Of a DNA stretch of 64,000 nt, positions 1,915 through 28,459 are shown piece by piece; the stretch's first letter is position 1; every line of letters starts with the position of its first letter. The translations under genes were made by a program, and so were the position numbers. A model generated the notes under the pieces. It searched no databases, was not told the origin of the DNA, and worked only from the letters and a program-made list of their open reading frames with translations. This stretch comes from Escherichia coli O157:H7 (GTDB taxonomy: Bacteria > Pseudomonadota > Gammaproteobacteria > Enterobacterales > Enterobacteriaceae), in NCBI RefSeq assembly GCF_013167455.1, contig NZ_CP038328.1. One strand, 5' to 3'.

Positions 1915-2289
1915 ATGGCTTCAACTGCACGCTCCCTTCGCTACGCGCTGGCAATCCTGACCACTTCGTTGGTGACACCTTCCGTCTGGGCACATGCGCA
2001 TTTAACGCATCAGTATCCTGCGGCAAACGCGCAAGTGACAGCTGCACCGCAGGCAATCACTTTAAACTTCTCGGAAGGTGTTGAAACAGGATTCAGTGGT
2101 GCAAAAATCACGGGGCCAAAAAACGAAAATATTAAAACATTACCGGCGAAGCGAAATGAGCAGGACCAAAAGCGACTGATTGTTCCACTGGCCGATTCGC
2201 TGAAACCCGGAACCTACACCGTTGACTGGCATGTTGTTTCGGTGGACGGGCATAAAACGAAAGGACACTACACCTTTAGCGTGAAATAA
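1915..2289 (+). CDS. yobA: Periplasmic CopC-family copper-binding protein
   Basis: 124 aa with signal peptide followed by HAHL (CopC N-terminal His motif). Confidence 0.9.
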   Translation: MASTARSLRYALAILTTSLVTPSVWAHAHLTHQYPAANAQVTAAPQAITLNFSEGVETGFSGAKITGPKNENIKTLPAKRNEQDQKRLIVPLADSLKPGTYTVDWHVVSVDGHKTKGHYTFSVK

Positions 2290-2292
2290 ATC

Positions 2293-3165
2293 ATGCTGGC
2301 GTTTACCTGGATCGCGCTGCGATTTATCCATTTCACCTCGCTGATGCTGGTCTTTGGCTTCGCAATGTACGGTGCCTGGCTGGCACCCTTAACGATTCGT
2401 CGCTTGCTGACGAAGCGTTTTCTGCGTTTACAACAGCACGCTGCCGTCTGGAGTTTGATCAGTGCCACTGCAATGCTCGCCGTTCAGGGCGGGTTGATGG
2501 GAACGGGATGGAAAGATGTATTTTCGCCAAACATTTGGCAGGCTGTTTTGCAAACGCAGTTTGGTGGCGTCTGGTTATGGCAAATTGTTCTCGCCCTCGT
2601 AACGTTGATCGTCGCCCTTATGCAACCGCGGAATATGCCACGTTTGCTGTTTATGCTCACTACCGCGCAATTTATTCTGCTGGCGGGAGTGGGGCATGCG
2701 ACGCTGAATGAAGGGGTAACGGCGAAAATCCATCAGACTAATCACGCGATTCACCTGATTTGTGCGGCGGCGTGGTTTGGGGGATTACTGCCGGTGCTCT
2801 GGTGTATGCAACTCATCAAAGGCCGTTGGCGACACCAGGCTATTCAGGCGCTGATGCGTTTTTCCTGGTGCGGGCATTTTGCGGTGATCGGCGTACTGGC
2901 AAGCGGCGTGCTTAATGCATTGTTGATTACCGGATTTCCCCCCACGCTTACGACTTACTGGGGCCAACTCTTATTGCTCAAAGCCATCCTGGTGATGATT
3001 ATGGTGGTCATTGCGCTGGCTAATCGTTATGTTCTTGTACCGCGCATGAGGCAGGATGAAGATCGTGCGGCACCCTGGTTTGTGTGGATGACTAAACTCG
3101 AATGGGCGATAGGTGCGGTAGTGCTGCTGATCATCAGCCTGCTTGCGACTCTCGAACCTTTTTGA
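2293..3165 (+). CDS. yebZ: CopD-family inner-membrane protein
   Basis: 290 aa polytopic membrane protein starting 4 nt after yobA (operon). Confidence 0.9.
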   Translation: MLAFTWIALRFIHFTSLMLVFGFAMYGAWLAPLTIRRLLTKRFLRLQQHAAVWSLISATAMLAVQGGLMGTGWKDVFSPNIWQAVLQTQFGGVWLWQIVLALVTLIVALMQPRNMPRLLFMLTTAQFILLAGVGHATLNEGVTAKIHQTNHAIHLICAAAWFGGLLPVLWCMQLIKGRWRHQAIQALMRFSWCGHFAVIGVLASGVLNALLITGFPPTLTTYWGQLLLLKAILVMIMVVIALANRYVLVPRMRQDEDRAAPWFVWMTKLEWAIGAVVLLIISLLATLEPF

Positions 3166-3177
3166 TGGATTACGAAA

Positions 3178-3519
3178 ATGATGAAAAAAAGTATTCTGGC
3201 GTTTCTGTTACTCACCAGTTCTGCAGCGGCGCTGGCTGCACCGCAGGTGATTACCGTCAGCCGTTTTGAAGTGGGTAAAGACAAATGGGCGTTTAATCGC
3301 GAAGAGGTGATGCTGACTTGCCGACCGGGTAATGCTTTGTATGTCATCAACCCAAGTACCCTCGTGCAGTATCCTTTAAACGATGTCGCACAGAAGGAAG
3401 TTGCCAGTGGGAAGACTAAAGCCCAACCCATTTCGGTGATTCAGATTGATGATCCCAACAATCCCGGCGAAAAAATGAGTCTGGCACCGTTTATAGAACG
3501 AGCTGAAAAACTCTGTTAA
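3178..3519 (+). CDS. yebY: Secreted DUF2511-family protein
   Basis: 113 aa with signal peptide; third gene of the yobA-yebZ-yebY operon. Confidence 0.85.
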
Positions 3520-3548
3520 TTACCTAAAATAGCCTTTTGATTTCCAAT

Positions 3549-3591
3549 AAAAAAACCGCCTCAGTTCTTTCACCAGAACGGGCGGTTTTTA
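3549..3591. terminator. Bidirectional intrinsic terminator downstream of yebY
   Basis: Hairpin AACCGCC...GGCGGTT flanked by an A-tract on the 5' side and a T-tract on the 3' side, so it is terminator-like on both strands. Confidence 0.6.
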
Positions 3592-3639
3592 ACATTTAAG
3601 CTGATGACCACCGCGCTTTTTATTGACCATTTTGCACGC

Positions 3640-3677
3640 AAACTGGAAAACCTGGCGTCGTCATCTATTCTTAAAGG
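3640..3677 (+). promoter_or_regulatory. Sigma-S-type promoter of sdsR
   Basis: TCTATTCT (-10 TATTCT with upstream C) ending 6 nt before the SdsR 5' end. Confidence 0.45.
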
Positions 3678-3780
3678 GCAAGGCAACTAAGCCTGCATTA
3701 ATGCCAACTTTTAGCGCACGGCTCTCTCCCAAGAGCCATTTCCCTGGACCGAATACAGGAATCGTGTTCGGTCTCTTTTT
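3678..3780 (+). ncRNA. sdsR: Small regulatory RNA SdsR (RyeB)
   Basis: Sequence GCAAGGCAACTAAGCCTGCATTAATGCC...GTTCGGTCTCTTTTT matches remembered SdsR; ends in a hairpin (GACCGAA/TTCGGTC) plus T-tract; lies in the yebY-pphA intergenic region as in K-12. Confidence 0.75.
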
Positions 3781-3914
3781 ATCTGTTAAAAGCCAGAAGC
3801 ATTTCCTTCGCTGACTTTATAGTCAACCATAACACACACTCTACTGTCTGAGTCCAGCGTTTTTTAACATTCTTGTTAAGATTATGTGATCTTTAGCGCG
3901 GGAGGAAAATATTG

Positions 3915-4571
3915 ATGAAACAGCCTGCGCCCGTTTATCAGAGAATTGCGGGTCATCAATGGCGACATATCTGGCTTTCTGGCGATATACACGGTTGTCT
4001 TGAGCAGTTGCGCCGCAAATTATGGCATTGTCGTTTTGATCCGTGGCGAGATTTACTTATCTCAGTGGGAGACGTTATCGATCGTGGGCCGCAAAGTTTA
4101 CGTTGTCTGCAGTTACTGGAACAACATTGGGTTCGTGCGGTAAGAGGCAATCATGAACAGATGGCGATGGATGCGCTGGCATCCCAGCAGATGTCTTTGT
4201 GGTTGATGAATGGCGGCGACTGGTTTATTGCGCTGGCAGATAATCAACAGAAACAAGCGAAAACGGCGCTGGAAAAATGTCAGCATTTGCCCTTTATTCT
4301 TGAAGTACACAGCCGCACCGGCAAACATGTTATTGCTCATGCCGATTATCCAGATGATGTTTATGAATGGCAAAAGGACGTTGATTTGCATCAGGTCTTG
4401 TGGAGCCGCTCGCGATTAAGTGAACGCCAAAAAGGGCAGGGAATTACAGGTGCTGATCATTTCTGGTTTGGTCATACACCGTTGCGCCATCGCGTGGATA
4501 TTGGCAACCTGCATTATATTGATACCGGCGCTGTCTTTGGGGGCGAACTGACTTTCGTGCAATTGCAATAA
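3915..4571 (+). CDS. pphA: Serine/threonine protein phosphatase 1 (metallophosphatase)
   Basis: Motifs GDIHG, GDVIDRG and GNHE in the translation; 218 aa from the second ATG. Confidence 0.9.
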   Translation: MKQPAPVYQRIAGHQWRHIWLSGDIHGCLEQLRRKLWHCRFDPWRDLLISVGDVIDRGPQSLRCLQLLEQHWVRAVRGNHEQMAMDALASQQMSLWLMNGGDWFIALADNQQKQAKTALEKCQHLPFILEVHSRTGKHVIAHADYPDDVYEWQKDVDLHQVLWSRSRLSERQKGQGITGADHFWFGHTPLRHRVDIGNLHYIDTGAVFGGELTFVQLQ

Positions 4572-4763
4572 TTAAAAATCACCATACTCCTGTGCTGGTC
4601 GCCAGAAACCATCTATAAAATCCTCAATCGGAAAACAACCGCCATGACGGATCCGTTGATCGCTCATAGAATAAAGACACTGCTGTTCCGTGTTGTAGAC
4701 ATCCACAACAATATCTTCACAACCGCCATCCAGGTAGCAAACAAAAAGTACCAGCGCGAACAT
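4572..4763 (-). CDS. yebW: Uncharacterized small protein YebW
   Basis: Track ORF trimmed to ATG at 4763 (MFALVLFVCYLDGG..., 63 aa); stop abuts pphA stop. Confidence 0.7.
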   Translation of the reverse strand: MFALVLFVCYLDGGCEDIVVDVYNTEQQCLYSMSDQRIRHGGCFPIEDFIDGFWRPAQEYGDF

Positions 4764-24838: not shown

Positions 24839-25300
24839 TTGCTACCTCCTTTATTATCGTTAACACCTCAACGTGCCAGATGTATTTTTGAATCGTCGTC
24901 CACAATCGAATCGATTCAGATAAGGGCTACAACCAAAAACCCCTGCGTTTCGCGATTTATTTTAGATATCGAAAAAATTATTTTATGTGATGAAGATCCG
25001 TAATTTAACTTTCGATTAGCAGAAATTTCGAAAGGTAAAATATCCTTGTCACATTCGTTTGCAAAGGAAGGTAAATCTTTGCCAAATCAGAGGCGTCTCT
25101 GATATGTTTAACTCCCGTTTAACAATCATGGAGTATAGGGCAGTAGCCCGCAGTATGGATCGTCACCGACGTCATTTCAGCATCAGGCCTTTTAACGCCT
25201 GCCTTTCTGGCACTCTATGCCGCACCTTTCGTTTGCATTTTGTCGTTACGCCTGCATTATTTCTGGCGTCGAATAGCTATTCCTTAAGCAGGAGCTTGTC

Positions 25301-26857
25301 ATGGAATTCTTAATGGACCCCTCAATTTGGGCGGGGCTACTCACGCTTGTTGTTCTCGAAATTGTGCTGGGTATCGATAACCTGGTCTTCATCGCCATTC
25401 TTGCTGACAAACTGCCGCCAAAACAACGCGATAAAGCGCGTTTGCTGGGGTTATCACTGGCGCTGATTATGCGTCTGGGGCTGCTGTCGCTGATTTCATG
25501 GATGGTCACGCTGACCAAACCGCTATTTACCGTCATGGATTTCTCCTTCTCCGGACGCGACCTGATTATGTTGTTCGGGGGGATATTCTTGCTGTTCAAA
25601 GCAACAACCGAACTGCATGAACGGCTGGAAAACCGCGATCATGATTCCGGCCACGGTAAAGGCTACGCCAGTTTCTGGGTGGTCGTCACACAGATTGTCA
25701 TCCTTGACGCCGTCTTCTCGTTGGATGCGGTAATTACTGCAGTAGGGATGGTTAACCATCTGCCGGTGATGATGGCGGCGGTAGTGATTGCGATGGCGGT
25801 TATGTTGCTGGCATCCAAACCGCTGACGCGATTCGTTAACCAGCACCCCACGGTGGTGGTGCTCTGTCTGAGCTTCCTGTTAATGATTGGTCTGAGTCTG
25901 GTGGCAGAAGGTTTCGGTTTCCACATTCCGAAAGGTTACCTGTATGCCGCGATTGGCTTCTCGATCATCATCGAAGTGTTTAACCAGATTGCGCGTCGCA
26001 ACTTTATTCGTCACCAGTCGACTTTGCCGCTGCGAGCGCGTACTGCCGATGCCATCCTGCGTTTGATGGGCGGGAAACGTCAGGCCAATGTTCAGCACGA
26101 TGCCGATAACCCGATGCCGATGCCGATCCCGGAAGGTGCATTTGCCGAAGAAGAACGTTACATGATTAACGGCGTACTGACGCTGGCGTCGCGTTCTCTG
26201 CGCGGGATCATGACGCCGCGCGGTGAAATAAGCTGGGTTGACGCTAATCTCGGGGTCGATGAAATCCGCGAGCAGCTGCTCTCCTCACCGCACAGCCTGT
26301 TCCCGGTATGTCGCGGTGAACTGGATGAAATCATCGGAATCGTACGTGCTAAAGAACTGCTGGTGGCGCTGGAAGAGGGCGTTGATGTGGCGGCGATTGC
26401 TTCGGCGTCTCCGGCGATTATCGTCCCTGAAACCCTCGATCCGATCAACCTGCTGGGCGTGCTGCGTCGTGCTCGCGGGAGCTTTGTTATCGTGACCAAC
26501 GAGTTTGGTGTGGTACAAGGCTTGGTCACGCCGCTGGATGTGCTGGAAGCCATTGCGGGTGAATTCCCGGACGCTGACGAAACGCCGGAAATCATTACTG
26601 ATGGTGACGGCTGGCTGGTAAAAGGCGGTACAGATTTGCATGCCTTGCAGCAGGCGCTTGATGTTGAGCACCTTGCCGATGACGATGATATCGCGACGGT
26701 CGCGGGCCTCGTGATCTCGGCAAATGGTCACATTCCCCGTGTGGGCGATGTGATTGATGTAGGGCCACTGCATATCACCATCATTGAAGCCAATGATTAT
26801 CGTGTTGATCTGGTTCGCATTGTTAAAGAGCAACCGGCGCACGATGAAGATGAGTAA
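25301..26857 (+). CDS. yoaE: Inner-membrane protein with TerC-like N-terminus, CBS pair and CorC/HlyC C-terminal domain
   Basis: 518 aa; membrane N-terminal half followed by a soluble CBS/CorC-like half. Confidence 0.9.
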
Positions 26858-26860
26858 GCG

Positions 26861-28459
26861 TTAACGTAACGGCATAATGGGCGTGATATGTCCATTATGC
26901 CGGGCGGGCGGCGGTTGGCTGCCCGCCAGCCATTTGGGAAAATCACGTAGCGGCATCGGCTGTGCGTACAAATACCCTTGCAAAATATGCACGCCATGAC
27001 GGCGCAAATACTTCGCCTGTTCTTGCGTTTCCACGCCCTCCGCCACCAGTTCAATATTCAGTCTTTGCCCCAGCGCGATGATGATATCGGTCACCGTCGA
27101 GTTAACCGCGTCAGAACCTATAGCTGCGGTAAATGACTTATCAATTTTCAGCACGTCAGGACGTAATGTTTCAAGCCAGGAAAATGAACTGTTGCCGGTG
27201 CCGAAGTCATCAATCGCCAGTTTGACGTTTTTACGATGTAGCTCGCGGGCAATCCGATAATCAACATCCAGTAAGGCATCGCGTTCGGTGATTTCGAGGA
27301 TCAGTTGCTGAATCGGGTGAGCGCTAAACCAGTACTGATTGAGATCTTTTATCAGCACACCACGGCGAAAATGGCTGGGTGCGACGTTAATGCCAACATG
27401 AAACTGACTACTCATCGGGAAAACATGGCGCTGACGAATGGTTTCTGCCATCACATAGCGGGTCAGTGGCACAATTAAATGATGTTCTTCCGCGATAGGA
27501 ATAAACACATCCGGTGAAATCCAGCCCTGACGCGGATTGTTCCAGCGCAGCAAAATCTCTACACCAATACATTGCTGGCTGCGCGCATTAAGCAAAGGCT
27601 GACAGAACAATTCGAACTCATGTTGCGCCAGGCCCAGATTGATTTCGCGGGAAAAGCTCATTCGGTAAGCGGTCGCCAGCCAGGCGATGTAGCCCACCAG
27701 TAAACTTAGCAGTACCGCCAGCGGTAATTGTGTTGGAAGATAGTGCCATGCCAGCGCCGGAGCCCCCGGACCATTAACGTTAATGGTAAAAGAAAAGCGT
27801 TGCGAAGAAACCTGATAGTTTTCATTGTCTTCAGGTTGTGGAAGGGAATCTACCAGCCCATTACCATAGAGCAAATGCCGTTTGTCCACCGTCAGGCTGG
27901 CGCTACTGATTTGCGGCAGTTGTGGCTCAAGCAGCATTGCCGTCAGTAAGTCGATGTTAATCATCTCCATGACCCCAGCATTGCTACTGCTCGCTGCAGG
28001 CGTCCATTGAATCAAAACCGGACTGCCTTTAATCAGGACACGGTCGGTCGTCAGGCGTAAAAGTGGTTGCGGTGCAGGAAGTTCAGCCAGAATGTCCACG
28101 ACGGGCACATTGCGATAACCAAAAATGCTGGAGCAATAAAGTGTGCCGTCTTGCACCAGGCCAATGGATCGCACAGTTTGGAGTTTTGCCGCCTGTTTAC
28201 GTAATGGCAAATGGGCGACAGAGCAGGGCAGACCAATCAGCGGAAGCAAGACTTCGCTACCTGCCTGTAGGGGAAGCAGTACTTTATCTAATTCCTCTAC
28301 AGCGTGATTGGCGAATTGTACTACCCGTTGTTGATTTAAGTTACGCTGTGAAATAAATCGCACGCTCAGGGTCGAAGCGAGCGTAACGAGTGCGCAAATC
28401 GTACAAACAATCATTCGATTACGGCGATAGGTTTTAATGATCCGTTGTGCTTTTTGCAT
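26861..28459 (-). CDS. pdeD: CSS-domain c-di-GMP phosphodiesterase PdeD (YoaD)
   Basis: Track ORF trimmed to ATG 28459 (MQKAQRIIKTYRRN..., 532 aa); periplasmic CSS motif (LYCSSIFGYRN), TM2, EAL domain (FELFCQP..., EILLRW). Confidence 0.85.
   Translation of the reverse strand: MQKAQRIIKTYRRNRMIVCTICALVTLASTLSVRFISQRNLNQQRVVQFANHAVEELDKVLLPLQAGSEVLLPLIGLPCSVAHLPLRKQAAKLQTVRSIGLVQDGTLYCSSIFGYRNVPVVDILAELPAPQPLLRLTTDRVLIKGSPVLIQWTPAASSSNAGVMEMINIDLLTAMLLEPQLPQISSASLTVDKRHLLYGNGLVDSLPQPEDNENYQVSSQRFSFTINVNGPGAPALAWHYLPTQLPLAVLLSLLVGYIAWLATAYRMSFSREINLGLAQHEFELFCQPLLNARSQQCIGVEILLRWNNPRQGWISPDVFIPIAEEHHLIVPLTRYVMAETIRQRHVFPMSSQFHVGINVAPSHFRRGVLIKDLNQYWFSAHPIQQLILEITERDALLDVDYRIARELHRKNVKLAIDDFGTGNSSFSWLETLRPDVLKIDKSFTAAIGSDAVNSTVTDIIIALGQRLNIELVAEGVETQEQAKYLRRHGVHILQGYLYAQPMPLRDFPKWLAGSQPPPARHNGHITPIMPLR

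What the first reader, a model, noticed from the sequence alone, without database searches (positions are those of the whole stretch)
26855..26930. Two tandem hairpins embedded in the last codons of pdeD, 14 nt after the convergent yoaE stop
A 10-bp stem (GGCATAATGG/CCATTATGCC) and a 7-bp GC stem (GGCGGGC/GCCCGCC) lie inside the pdeD 3' coding region. They likely act as the yoaE terminator while constraining the PdeD C-terminus.
Basis: seen in the sequence. Interest (0 to 1): 0.2.

Follow-up and report, generated by a model that had tools for sequence, protein, structure and literature searches.

The report
yoaE mRNA 3'-end hairpins inside pdeD
Two strong RNA hairpins sit at the mapped 3' end of the E. 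coli yoaE mRNA and also encode the last ~20 amino acids of the convergent gene pdeD; this is an ordinary kind of mRNA-end structure, kept by selection across enteric bacteria.

Summary
Hairpin 1 (26870-26902, 11 Watson-Crick pairs, 15 with G·U) and hairpin 2 (26903-26927, 10 pairs) start 13 nt after the yoaE stop. They lie inside pdeD codons 511-530, past the EAL domain, which ends at residue 501.

They are not chance. The fold has z = -4.6. The structure persists in most of ~56 distinct Enterobacteriaceae sequences with compensatory changes. Native codons fold better than synonymous recodings (mean z = -2.7). Non-Watson-Crick pairs are G·U on the yoaE-sense strand 72:16. One species that lost pdeD kept hairpin 1 as non-coding DNA.

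Published 3'-end mapping in K-12 (TRS, PMC10687069) places the primary yoaE terminus 1-10 nt after hairpin 2, giving an 81-nt 3'UTR.

There is no U-tract (3 U; weight 0.17 against 2.7-5.4 in the Klebsiella-type terminators at the same place), and the tail is not conserved. A bicyclomycin-sensitive Rho termination region lies ~180 nt downstream, preceded by a C-rich stretch.

Most likely Rho terminates downstream and exonucleases trim back to the hairpins, which protect yoaE mRNA. Weak intrinsic termination remains possible.

This is a new member of a known kind, of low to moderate interest.

The parts
25301..26857 (+). yoaE coding sequence (CNNM/TerC-family membrane protein); stop TAA at 26855-26857
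   Evidence: ORF list; RefSeq annotation of an identical record and of K-12
26858..26867 (+). Mini-palindrome GCGTTAACGC covering the 3-nt spacer and the pdeD stop codon; weak 3-bp stem in the predicted fold
   Evidence: Sequence; fold
26870..26902 (+). Hairpin 1 of the yoaE 3'UTR: 11 Watson-Crick pairs, 15 with G·U, 3-nt loop. On the other strand it encodes PdeD R520-H-N-G-H-I-T-P-I-M-P530.
   Evidence: Conserved with compensatory changes (7 of 15 pairs change on both sides). Kept as non-coding DNA where pdeD is deleted (L036).
26903..26927 (+). Hairpin 2 of the yoaE 3'UTR: 10 pairs (9 G-C/C-G, 1 G·U), 5-nt loop. On the other strand it encodes PdeD (L511)-A-G-S-Q-P-P-P-A519.
   Evidence: A GC-rich hairpin is kept at this place in different registers and sequences across genera.
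26928..26937 (+). Experimentally mapped primary 3' terminus of yoaE mRNA (K-12 1,899,958-1,899,949, minus strand). Tail AGCCAUUUGG, longest U run 3.
   Evidence: TRS supplementary tables, PMC10687069; coordinate conversion checked on NC_000913.3
26960..27079 (+). C-rich, G-poor stretch on the yoaE-sense strand (peak 27020-27059, C/G 3.2); candidate Rho-utilisation region
Evidence: Composition scan.
27109..27109 (+). Reported peak coordinate of a bicyclomycin-sensitive Rho termination region, antisense to pdeD (K-12 1,899,777, minus strand). Its resolution is coarse (800-nt windows).
   Evidence: Adams et al. 2021 Supplementary file 2, PMC7815308; conversion
26861..28459 (-). pdeD coding sequence (CSS-motif + EAL c-di-GMP phosphodiesterase). 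The EAL domain ends at residue 501. Residues 511-530 of the 31-residue tail are encoded by the hairpins.

Best explanation
The two hairpins are a conserved RNA structure of the yoaE transcript. They form an 81-nt yoaE 3'UTR that is, on the other strand, the last ~20 codons of pdeD.

Proposed mechanism: RNA polymerase transcribing yoaE passes the stop codon and both hairpins into untranslated antisense-pdeD RNA. Rho loads on the C-rich stretch about 35-150 nt further on and terminates around 180 nt past the hairpins. 3'-to-5' exonucleases then trim back until hairpin 2 stops them, with hairpin 1 behind it. This leaves the steady-state 3' end a few nucleotides after the stem and protects yoaE mRNA.

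Because the genes are only 3 nt apart, this RNA structure dictates both the codons and part of the amino-acid sequence of the PdeD tail.

Shown: the structure, its conservation and strand bias, the 3' end, and the Rho-sensitive region. Inferred: the order of events and the protective role.
For: Structure and significance.

3' end: it maps 1-10 nt after hairpin 2 in at least two sheets of TRS Supplementary Data 2 and in one sheet of Supplementary Data 3, with an 81-nt 3'UTR and a longest U run of 3.

Rho: a termination region lies at window 27109 on the same strand. Reads upstream/downstream are 51/9 untreated and 103/100 with bicyclomycin, giving a Rho score of 5.5. A C>G stretch at 26960-27079 lies between the hairpins and that site.

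No U-tract: the terminator scan does not call the site. T-tract weight is 0.17, against 2.7-5.4 for the Klebsiella/Raoultella terminators at the same place. Only 5 of 66 embedded-type loci have at least 5 T in 8 after a strong hairpin.

Match to a known class: Dar & Sorek 2018 describe stable stem-loops without a U-rich tail at Rho-dependent 3' ends, with rut sites just downstream.

Selection at the RNA level on the yoaE-sense strand:
- The + strand fold is more stable in 47 of 56 sequences.
- Transition-type mismatches in strand-neutral stems are G·U on + in 72 cases and A·C in 16.
- Native sequences beat synonymous recodings in all 55 species tested, mean z -2.7.
- On a codon-anchored, gap-free alignment 77.6% of cells are paired, against 32-49% when partners are slid.
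- Synonymous codon identity to E. coli is 61.6% in the tail against 46.5% in the gene body.

Independence from pdeD: Intestinirhabdus has lost pdeD but keeps hairpin 1. Two other pdeD-less species have other hairpins after yoaE.
Against: The dominant 3' ends (26934-26937) lie 7-10 nt after the stem, in or just after UUU. That is also where an intrinsic terminator would release.

The Rho data come from 800-nt windows with about 50-100 reads, in one experiment. Bicyclomycin also raises upstream antisense transcription, so equal reads up- and downstream do not prove that the hairpins let all polymerases through.

Adams et al. did not list a curated Term-seq 3' end at the junction.

No exonuclease-mutant or half-life data were found for yoaE.

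The strand asymmetry is partly compositional: shuffles of the + strand already fold about 8 kcal/mol better than shuffles of the - strand.

The species are related, so the counts are not independent events.
Confidence: 0.6

Rival explanations
1. Non-canonical intrinsic (Rho-independent) terminator. The very stable GC-rich hairpin 2, helped by hairpin 1 and perhaps NusA/NusG, makes polymerase release at AGCCAUUU(G). Rho acts only as a backstop for polymerases that read through.
For: 3' ends map 7-10 nt after the stem, at or after UUU. Hairpin 2 alone folds at -22.7 kcal/mol. Klebsiella, Raoultella and pdeD-less species have a canonical hairpin plus T-tract at the equivalent position, which shows that termination is wanted here.
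Against: The U run is only 3 and sits in the distal part of the tail; T-tract weight is 0.17. The scan does not call the site. The UUU is the antisense of a Lys codon and is not conserved (CTG, GCG or GGC in other genera) while the hairpins are conserved. With bicyclomycin, downstream reads equal upstream reads. The held supplements of an intrinsic-terminator catalogue (TERMITe) have no yoaE entry, which is weak evidence.
Confidence: 0.25
2. The conservation is protein-level. The PdeD tail (…WLAGSQPPPARHNGHITPIMPLR) is a functional peptide, and the hairpins are a by-product of its codons.
For: Tail amino-acid identity to E. coli (69.7%) is about the same as whole-protein identity (70.3%). The residues LR* outside the hairpins are often kept.
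Against: For the same peptide, native codons fold far better than synonymous alternatives (E. coli -49.1 vs -32.1±4.6, 0/200). Synonymous sites are more conserved in the tail than in the body. Paired positions change together. The tail is replaced by unrelated sequences in Klebsiella, Raoultella and Kluyvera, where a separate terminator exists. Hairpin 1 survives loss of pdeD. The tail lies beyond the EAL domain.
Confidence: 0.05
3. The hairpins act in the pdeD-sense RNA, either as a 3' stabiliser or terminator of pdeD mRNA or as a translation-linked element near its stop codon. Alternatively they act on both strands as a bidirectional terminator for the convergent pair.
For: The complement also folds better than chance (-35.5, z -3.7) and better than synonymous recodings (mean z -2.2). 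pdeD-yoaE is listed among convergent pairs with overlapping transcripts.
Against: Wobble pairs favour the yoaE-sense strand 72:16, so several stems carry A·C mismatches in pdeD-sense RNA; in Cedecea-type sequences the fold is -26 against -42. No pdeD 3' end was found in the tables searched. There are no A/T tracts flanking the stems, as bidirectional terminators have. Ribosomes finishing pdeD 7 nt past hairpin 1 would melt it.
Confidence: 0.07
4. Chance inverted repeats, or a copy of a dispersed repeat (REP/BIME-like).
For: None beyond GC-rich composition.
Against: 0/200 shuffles fold as well. The element is single-copy per genome. It is conserved across genera with covariation. There is no Rfam match apart from sub-threshold noise.
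Confidence: 0.02

Closest known systems
[quoted passage not shown]
   Same: A stable stem-loop lies immediately upstream of a precise steady-state 3' end. It has no U-rich tail. C-rich sequence and a Rho-sensitive region lie just downstream.
   Different: There are two tandem hairpins rather than one. The whole structure lies inside the coding sequence of a convergent gene. Exonuclease dependence is untested for yoaE.
Canonical intrinsic (Rho-independent) terminators
   Same: GC-rich hairpin, with 3' ends 7-10 nt after the stem. Klebsiella and Raoultella have a true one at the orthologous position.
   Different: There is no U-tract (3 U; weight 0.17 vs 2.7-5.4). The tail is not conserved. Read-through is Rho-sensitive.
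Convergent excludons / overlapping 3' ends of convergent genes (ExcludonFinder, PMC12288877)
   Same: pdeD-yoaE is listed among 165 convergent E. coli pairs with overlapping transcripts. The yoaE 3'UTR is fully antisense to the pdeD 3' coding region.
   Different: No evidence was found here for mutual repression or RNase III processing. The conserved feature is an intramolecular structure, not just overlap.
Bidirectional terminators at convergent gene pairs
   Same: A single palindromic region is shared by two convergent genes.
   Different: It lacks the flanking A- and U-tracts. The strand bias of wobble pairs points to one strand. No pdeD 3' end is recorded.

Membership tests
Rho-dependent 3'-end protective stem-loop (Dar & Sorek class) | Energetically stable stem-loop immediately upstream of the steady-state 3' end | tested here: met
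   Hairpin 2 ends at 26927 and the mapped terminus is at 26928-26937
Rho-dependent 3'-end protective stem-loop (Dar & Sorek class) | Stem-loop not followed by a uridine-rich sequence | tested here: met
   Tail AGCCAUUUGG, longest U run 3; T-tract weight 0.17; not called by the terminator scan
Rho-dependent 3'-end protective stem-loop (Dar & Sorek class) | Read-through downstream increases when Rho is inhibited | tested here: met
   Published table: Rho score 5.5, p 1.2e-6, at K-12 1,899,777 (-) = window 27109. Low read counts and 800-nt windows.
Rho-dependent 3'-end protective stem-loop (Dar & Sorek class) | C-rich/G-poor (rut-like) sequence just downstream of the structure | tested here: met
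   C>G from 26960 to 27079, peak C/G 3.2 at 27020-27059
Rho-dependent 3'-end protective stem-loop (Dar & Sorek class) | The 3' end depends on trimming by 3'-5' exonucleases (PNPase, RNase II), and the stem stabilises the mRNA | not testable with these tools
   No mutant data for yoaE found; the Dar & Sorek supplements are not held
Canonical intrinsic terminator | GC-rich hairpin | tested here: met
   Hairpin 2: 9 G-C/C-G pairs plus 1 G·U; -22.7 kcal/mol folded alone
Canonical intrinsic terminator | U-tract (about 5 or more U in the 8 nt after the stem) | tested here: not met
   3 U. Absent in most orthologues: at least 5 T in 8 in only 5 of 66 embedded-type loci.
Canonical intrinsic terminator | Termination independent of Rho | tested here: inconclusive
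   The bicyclomycin data suggest full read-through (103 vs 100 reads) but are coarse. No in vitro data.
REP/BIME or other dispersed palindromic repeats | Many copies per genome | tested here: not met
   Exactly one place per genome in 5,423 genomes
Bidirectional terminator of a convergent pair | Hairpin flanked by an A-tract upstream and a U-tract downstream, with 3' ends on both strands | tested here: not met
   No flanking tracts; no pdeD-sense 3' end in the tables searched; wobble bias 72:16 to one strand
Convergent excludon | Overlapping transcripts of the two convergent genes | tested here: met
   Listed in Table 1 of PMC12288877; the 81-nt yoaE 3'UTR overlaps pdeD
Convergent excludon | Mutually exclusive expression, RNase III processing of the overlap | not tested
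   No data found
Any Rfam family | Match at the gathering score | tested here: not met
   Only sub-threshold noise: mir-2001 at 22.4 bits against a cut-off of 74

The most novel reading that the evidence does not exclude
The tightly conserved arrangement (stop codons 0-6 nt apart in most Enterobacteriaceae) could be a cis-antisense control module rather than just a 3'-end structure. In this reading, the stem-loops of the yoaE 3'UTR and their exact complements at the end of pdeD mRNA meet through loop-loop contacts, form a duplex and are cleaved. Expression of the c-di-GMP phosphodiesterase PdeD would then be inversely coupled to the cation-transport protein YoaE. The PdeD tail would be a peptide with no function of its own, written by the RNA structure.
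Probability: 0.1. Interest if true: 0.55.

Novelty: new member of a known kind. Interest (0 to 1): 0.3.

Why it matters
The locus is a clean natural example of one DNA segment under two readings. An mRNA-end structure for one gene sets the codons, and partly the amino acids, of the convergent gene's tail: R520/P530, H521/M529, N522/I528 and G523/P527 are antisense codon pairs.

It warns against reading conservation of a C-terminal tail as evidence of protein function.

It adds a well-supported case, with comparative evidence, to the class of U-less stem-loops that mark Rho-dependent 3' ends.

It also shows that related genera solved the same need differently, with a canonical intergenic terminator in Klebsiella and Raoultella.

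It does not change any general view of termination.

Tried and rejected
- RNAalifold on a plain MAFFT alignment of 56 junctions (A1) found only 5 pairs. Hairpin 2 sits in different registers in different clades, so a sequence alignment is not a structural one. I replaced it with a strand-neutral per-sequence stem finder and a codon-anchored gap-free alignment (A2).
- The Rfam scan gave only noise.
- Supplements were not held for Dar & Sorek 2018, ExcludonFinder and the 3'-UTR valves paper.
- The held supplements of TERMITe have no yoaE entry.
- Adams et al. curated Term-seq tables have no 3' end at the junction.
- A literature search for yoaE together with ProQ/Hfq/RIL-seq returned no paper that mentions yoaE, so ProQ binding of this 3'UTR remains untested.
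- I could not verify which sheet of TRS Supplementary Data 2 holds the second yoaE row. By sheet order it is probably the Dar & Sorek Term-seq re-analysis.
- Listing hairpins from a 130-nt global MFE fold missed some hairpins, for example L073 and L055, so its counts are approximate.
- The REP-repeat and chance explanations were rejected.
Full report
**1. What is there.**
The window is E. coli: positions 26400-27400 are 100% identical to O157:H7 PV15-279, and 5,424 of 5,426 complete E. coli genomes have a match. RefSeq annotates yoaE at window 25301-26857 (+) and pdeD at 26861-28459 (-), convergent with 3 nt between the stop codons.

- Hairpin 1 has 11 perfect pairs (26870-26880 / 26892-26902), or 15 pairs with a 3-nt loop once G·U pairs on the + strand are allowed.
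- Hairpin 2 has 10 pairs (26903-26912 / 26918-26927) with a 5-nt loop.

The yoaE-sense RNA 26850-26945 folds at -49.1 kcal/mol, against -32.5±3.6 for dinucleotide shuffles (z -4.6, 0/200). The pdeD-sense RNA folds at -35.5 (z -3.7).

No Rfam family matches, and the element is single-copy per genome.

In PdeD the EAL domain ends at residue 501. The hairpins encode residues 511-530 of the tail …WLAGSQPPPARHNGHITPIMPLR*. The two arms of hairpin 1 are the codon blocks R-H-N-G and P-I-M-P, which are antisense to each other.

**2. Comparative evidence.**
Eighty yoaE loci from other Enterobacteriaceae were fetched. A convergent pdeD lies directly downstream in 77 of them. The two stop codons are 0-6 nt apart in most genera.

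Nearly all these species have one or two strong hairpins in the first ~75 nt after the yoaE stop, but with different sequences. Hairpin 2, for example, is:
- GGCGGGCGGC/GCTGCCCGCC in Escherichia, Citrobacter and Salmonella
- GCTGGCGGGG/CCCCGCCAGC in Enterobacter
- TGGCAGGTGGC/GCCACCTGCCA in Atlantibacter
- GAGGGGGA/TCCCCCTC in Buttiauxella

On a gap-free alignment anchored on codons rather than on structure (A2, 33 sequences), the E. coli structure is paired in 77.6% of cells. When the partners are slid by 1-3 columns this falls to 32-49%. The covariation score is 0.238 against 0.06-0.14, and 11 of 25 pairs show changes on both sides.

**3. RNA-level or protein-level selection, and on which strand.**
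- *Synonymous recoding.* Recoding each species' own tail peptide gives less stable folds than the native sequence in all 55 species tested (mean z -2.7). For E. coli the native fold is -49.1 against -32.1±4.6, with 0 of 200 recodings as stable.
- *Synonymous sites.* Where the amino acid equals that of E. coli, the codon is identical in 61.6% of tail positions against 46.5% in the rest of pdeD.
- *Strand.* A stem finder that treats G·U and A·C alike finds 72 G·U against 16 A·C on the yoaE-sense strand within stems. The yoaE-sense fold is the more stable one in 47 of 56 sequences. Part of that asymmetry is compositional, since shuffles differ by ~8 kcal/mol between strands.
- *Loss of pdeD.* Intestinirhabdus alba has lost pdeD, so sdaA is now the convergent neighbour, yet it keeps hairpin 1 as a perfect non-coding stem right after yoaE. 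Two other pdeD-less species have different hairpins with T-rich tails.
- *Replacement.* In Klebsiella, Raoultella and relatives the genes are 13-57 nt apart (73-90 nt in Kluyvera). In the Klebsiella/Raoultella group a single hairpin with a true T-tract follows yoaE, and the PdeD tail after WLA is unrelated sequence. In Raoultella the ORF reads through that other hairpin.

Together these results show that the conserved object is an RNA structure belonging to yoaE, and that the PdeD tail follows it.

**4. Experimental data from the literature.**
Coordinates convert as K-12 = 1,926,886 - window, verified on NC_000913.3, which is identical over 26700-27184.

The TRS study (Bar et al. 2023, PMC10687069) lists a 'Primary' yoaE 3' terminus at 1,899,949-1,899,958 (-), with dominant positions 1,899,949 to 1,899,952. 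This is window 26928-26937, or 1-10 nt after hairpin 2. The terminus appears in two sheets of Supplementary Data 2 and in one sheet of Supplementary Data 3, which holds the authors' paired RNAtag-seq and Term-seq analyses. The 3'UTR is 81 nt and the longest U run is 3.

Adams et al. 2021 (PMC7815308) list a Rho termination region on the same strand at 1,899,777 (window 27109), antisense to pdeD. Reads upstream/downstream are 51/9 untreated and 103/100 with bicyclomycin, giving a Rho score of 5.5 (p 1.2e-6). Their curated Term-seq list has no 3' end at the junction.

ExcludonFinder (PMC12288877) lists pdeD-yoaE among convergent pairs with overlapping transcripts.

**5. Mechanism.**
The site lacks the U-tract of an intrinsic terminator:
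- the scan does not call it;
- its T-tract weight is 0.17, against 2.7-5.4 for the Klebsiella-type terminators;
- the short UUU is the antisense of a Lys codon and is replaced by CTG, GCG or GGC elsewhere, while the hairpins persist.

A C-rich, G-poor stretch (26960-27079, peak C/G 3.2) lies between the hairpins and the Rho region.

This is the anatomy Dar & Sorek 2018 described for Rho-dependent transcripts: precise 3' ends just after stable stem-loops without U-rich tails, rut sites just downstream, and the stem-loops protecting against PNPase and RNase II.

I therefore favour Rho termination downstream followed by trimming back to the hairpins (confidence 0.6). Weak intrinsic termination at AGCCAUUU, with Rho as backstop, remains a real alternative (0.25), because the dominant ends lie 7-10 nt after the stem. 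Taken together, the probability that the hairpins form or protect the yoaE 3' end is about 0.85.

**6. Verdict.**

It is probably wrong in the strict sense of 'terminator'.

The element is a new, well-documented member of a known class. Its 3' end is already recorded in a high-throughput table. What is new is the comparative demonstration of dual coding. Interest is low to moderate.

Noticed in passing
window 26903-26912 (L002: NZ_CP041955.1): Some E. coli strains (e.g. EC2, H22; also H23) have a 4-nt deletion in the GGGC repeat of the hairpin 2 5' arm (GGGCGGGCGGCGG to GGGCGGCGG). pdeD is then annotated as a frameshifted pseudogene and hairpin 2 is weakened. 277 of 5,423 genomes fall in the 90-95% identity band for the 79-nt query; how many of these carry the deletion was not resolved.
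   Followed up: partly
window ~25155-25313 (+): A small annotated ORF, yoaL (52 codons), lies in the yoaE leader and overlaps the yoaE start by 13 nt. It is a possible upstream ORF controlling yoaE.
   Followed up: no
window 28443 (-) = K-12 1,898,443 (+): Adams et al. list a strong Rho termination region (Rho score 9.6) 17 nt inside the pdeD ORF on the pdeD-sense strand. This suggests that pdeD transcription is largely aborted in LB.
   Followed up: no
L004 (NZ_CM132949.1) 2248-4185: In E. coli strain 361 an IS1A element abuts a pdeD truncated at its C-terminus. The yoaE side of the locus, including the hairpins, is missing there.
   Followed up: no
L072 and L075 (Raoultella), ~20-55 nt after the yoaE stop: The pdeD ORF reads through a different, canonical terminator hairpin (tail …KTGRPPAETGRSV*). 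So the ORF has run into the yoaE 3' hairpin more than once in evolution.
   Followed up: partly
L043 (Klebsiella pneumoniae ATCC 13883), 40-90 nt after the yoaE stop: A CTCACT-type hexanucleotide repeat gives PdeD a SESESESE tail.
   Followed up: no
L036 (Intestinirhabdus alba) 4584-4620: pdeD is deleted and sdaA is the convergent neighbour, but a perfect hairpin-1 homologue (GGCATAGCGGAC…GTCCGCTATGCC) remains right after yoaE as non-coding DNA.
   Followed up: yes
window 26858-26867: The palindrome GCGTTAACGC covers the 3-nt spacer and the pdeD stop codon, directly after the yoaE stop. It forms a weak 3-bp stem in the predicted fold.
   Followed up: no
window 27006-26990 (-): A terminator-like consensus match (7-bp stem plus CATATTTTGC) lies on the pdeD-sense strand inside pdeD, ~130 nt before its stop. 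The number of such matches in the region equals the shuffle expectation, so it is probably chance.
   Followed up: no
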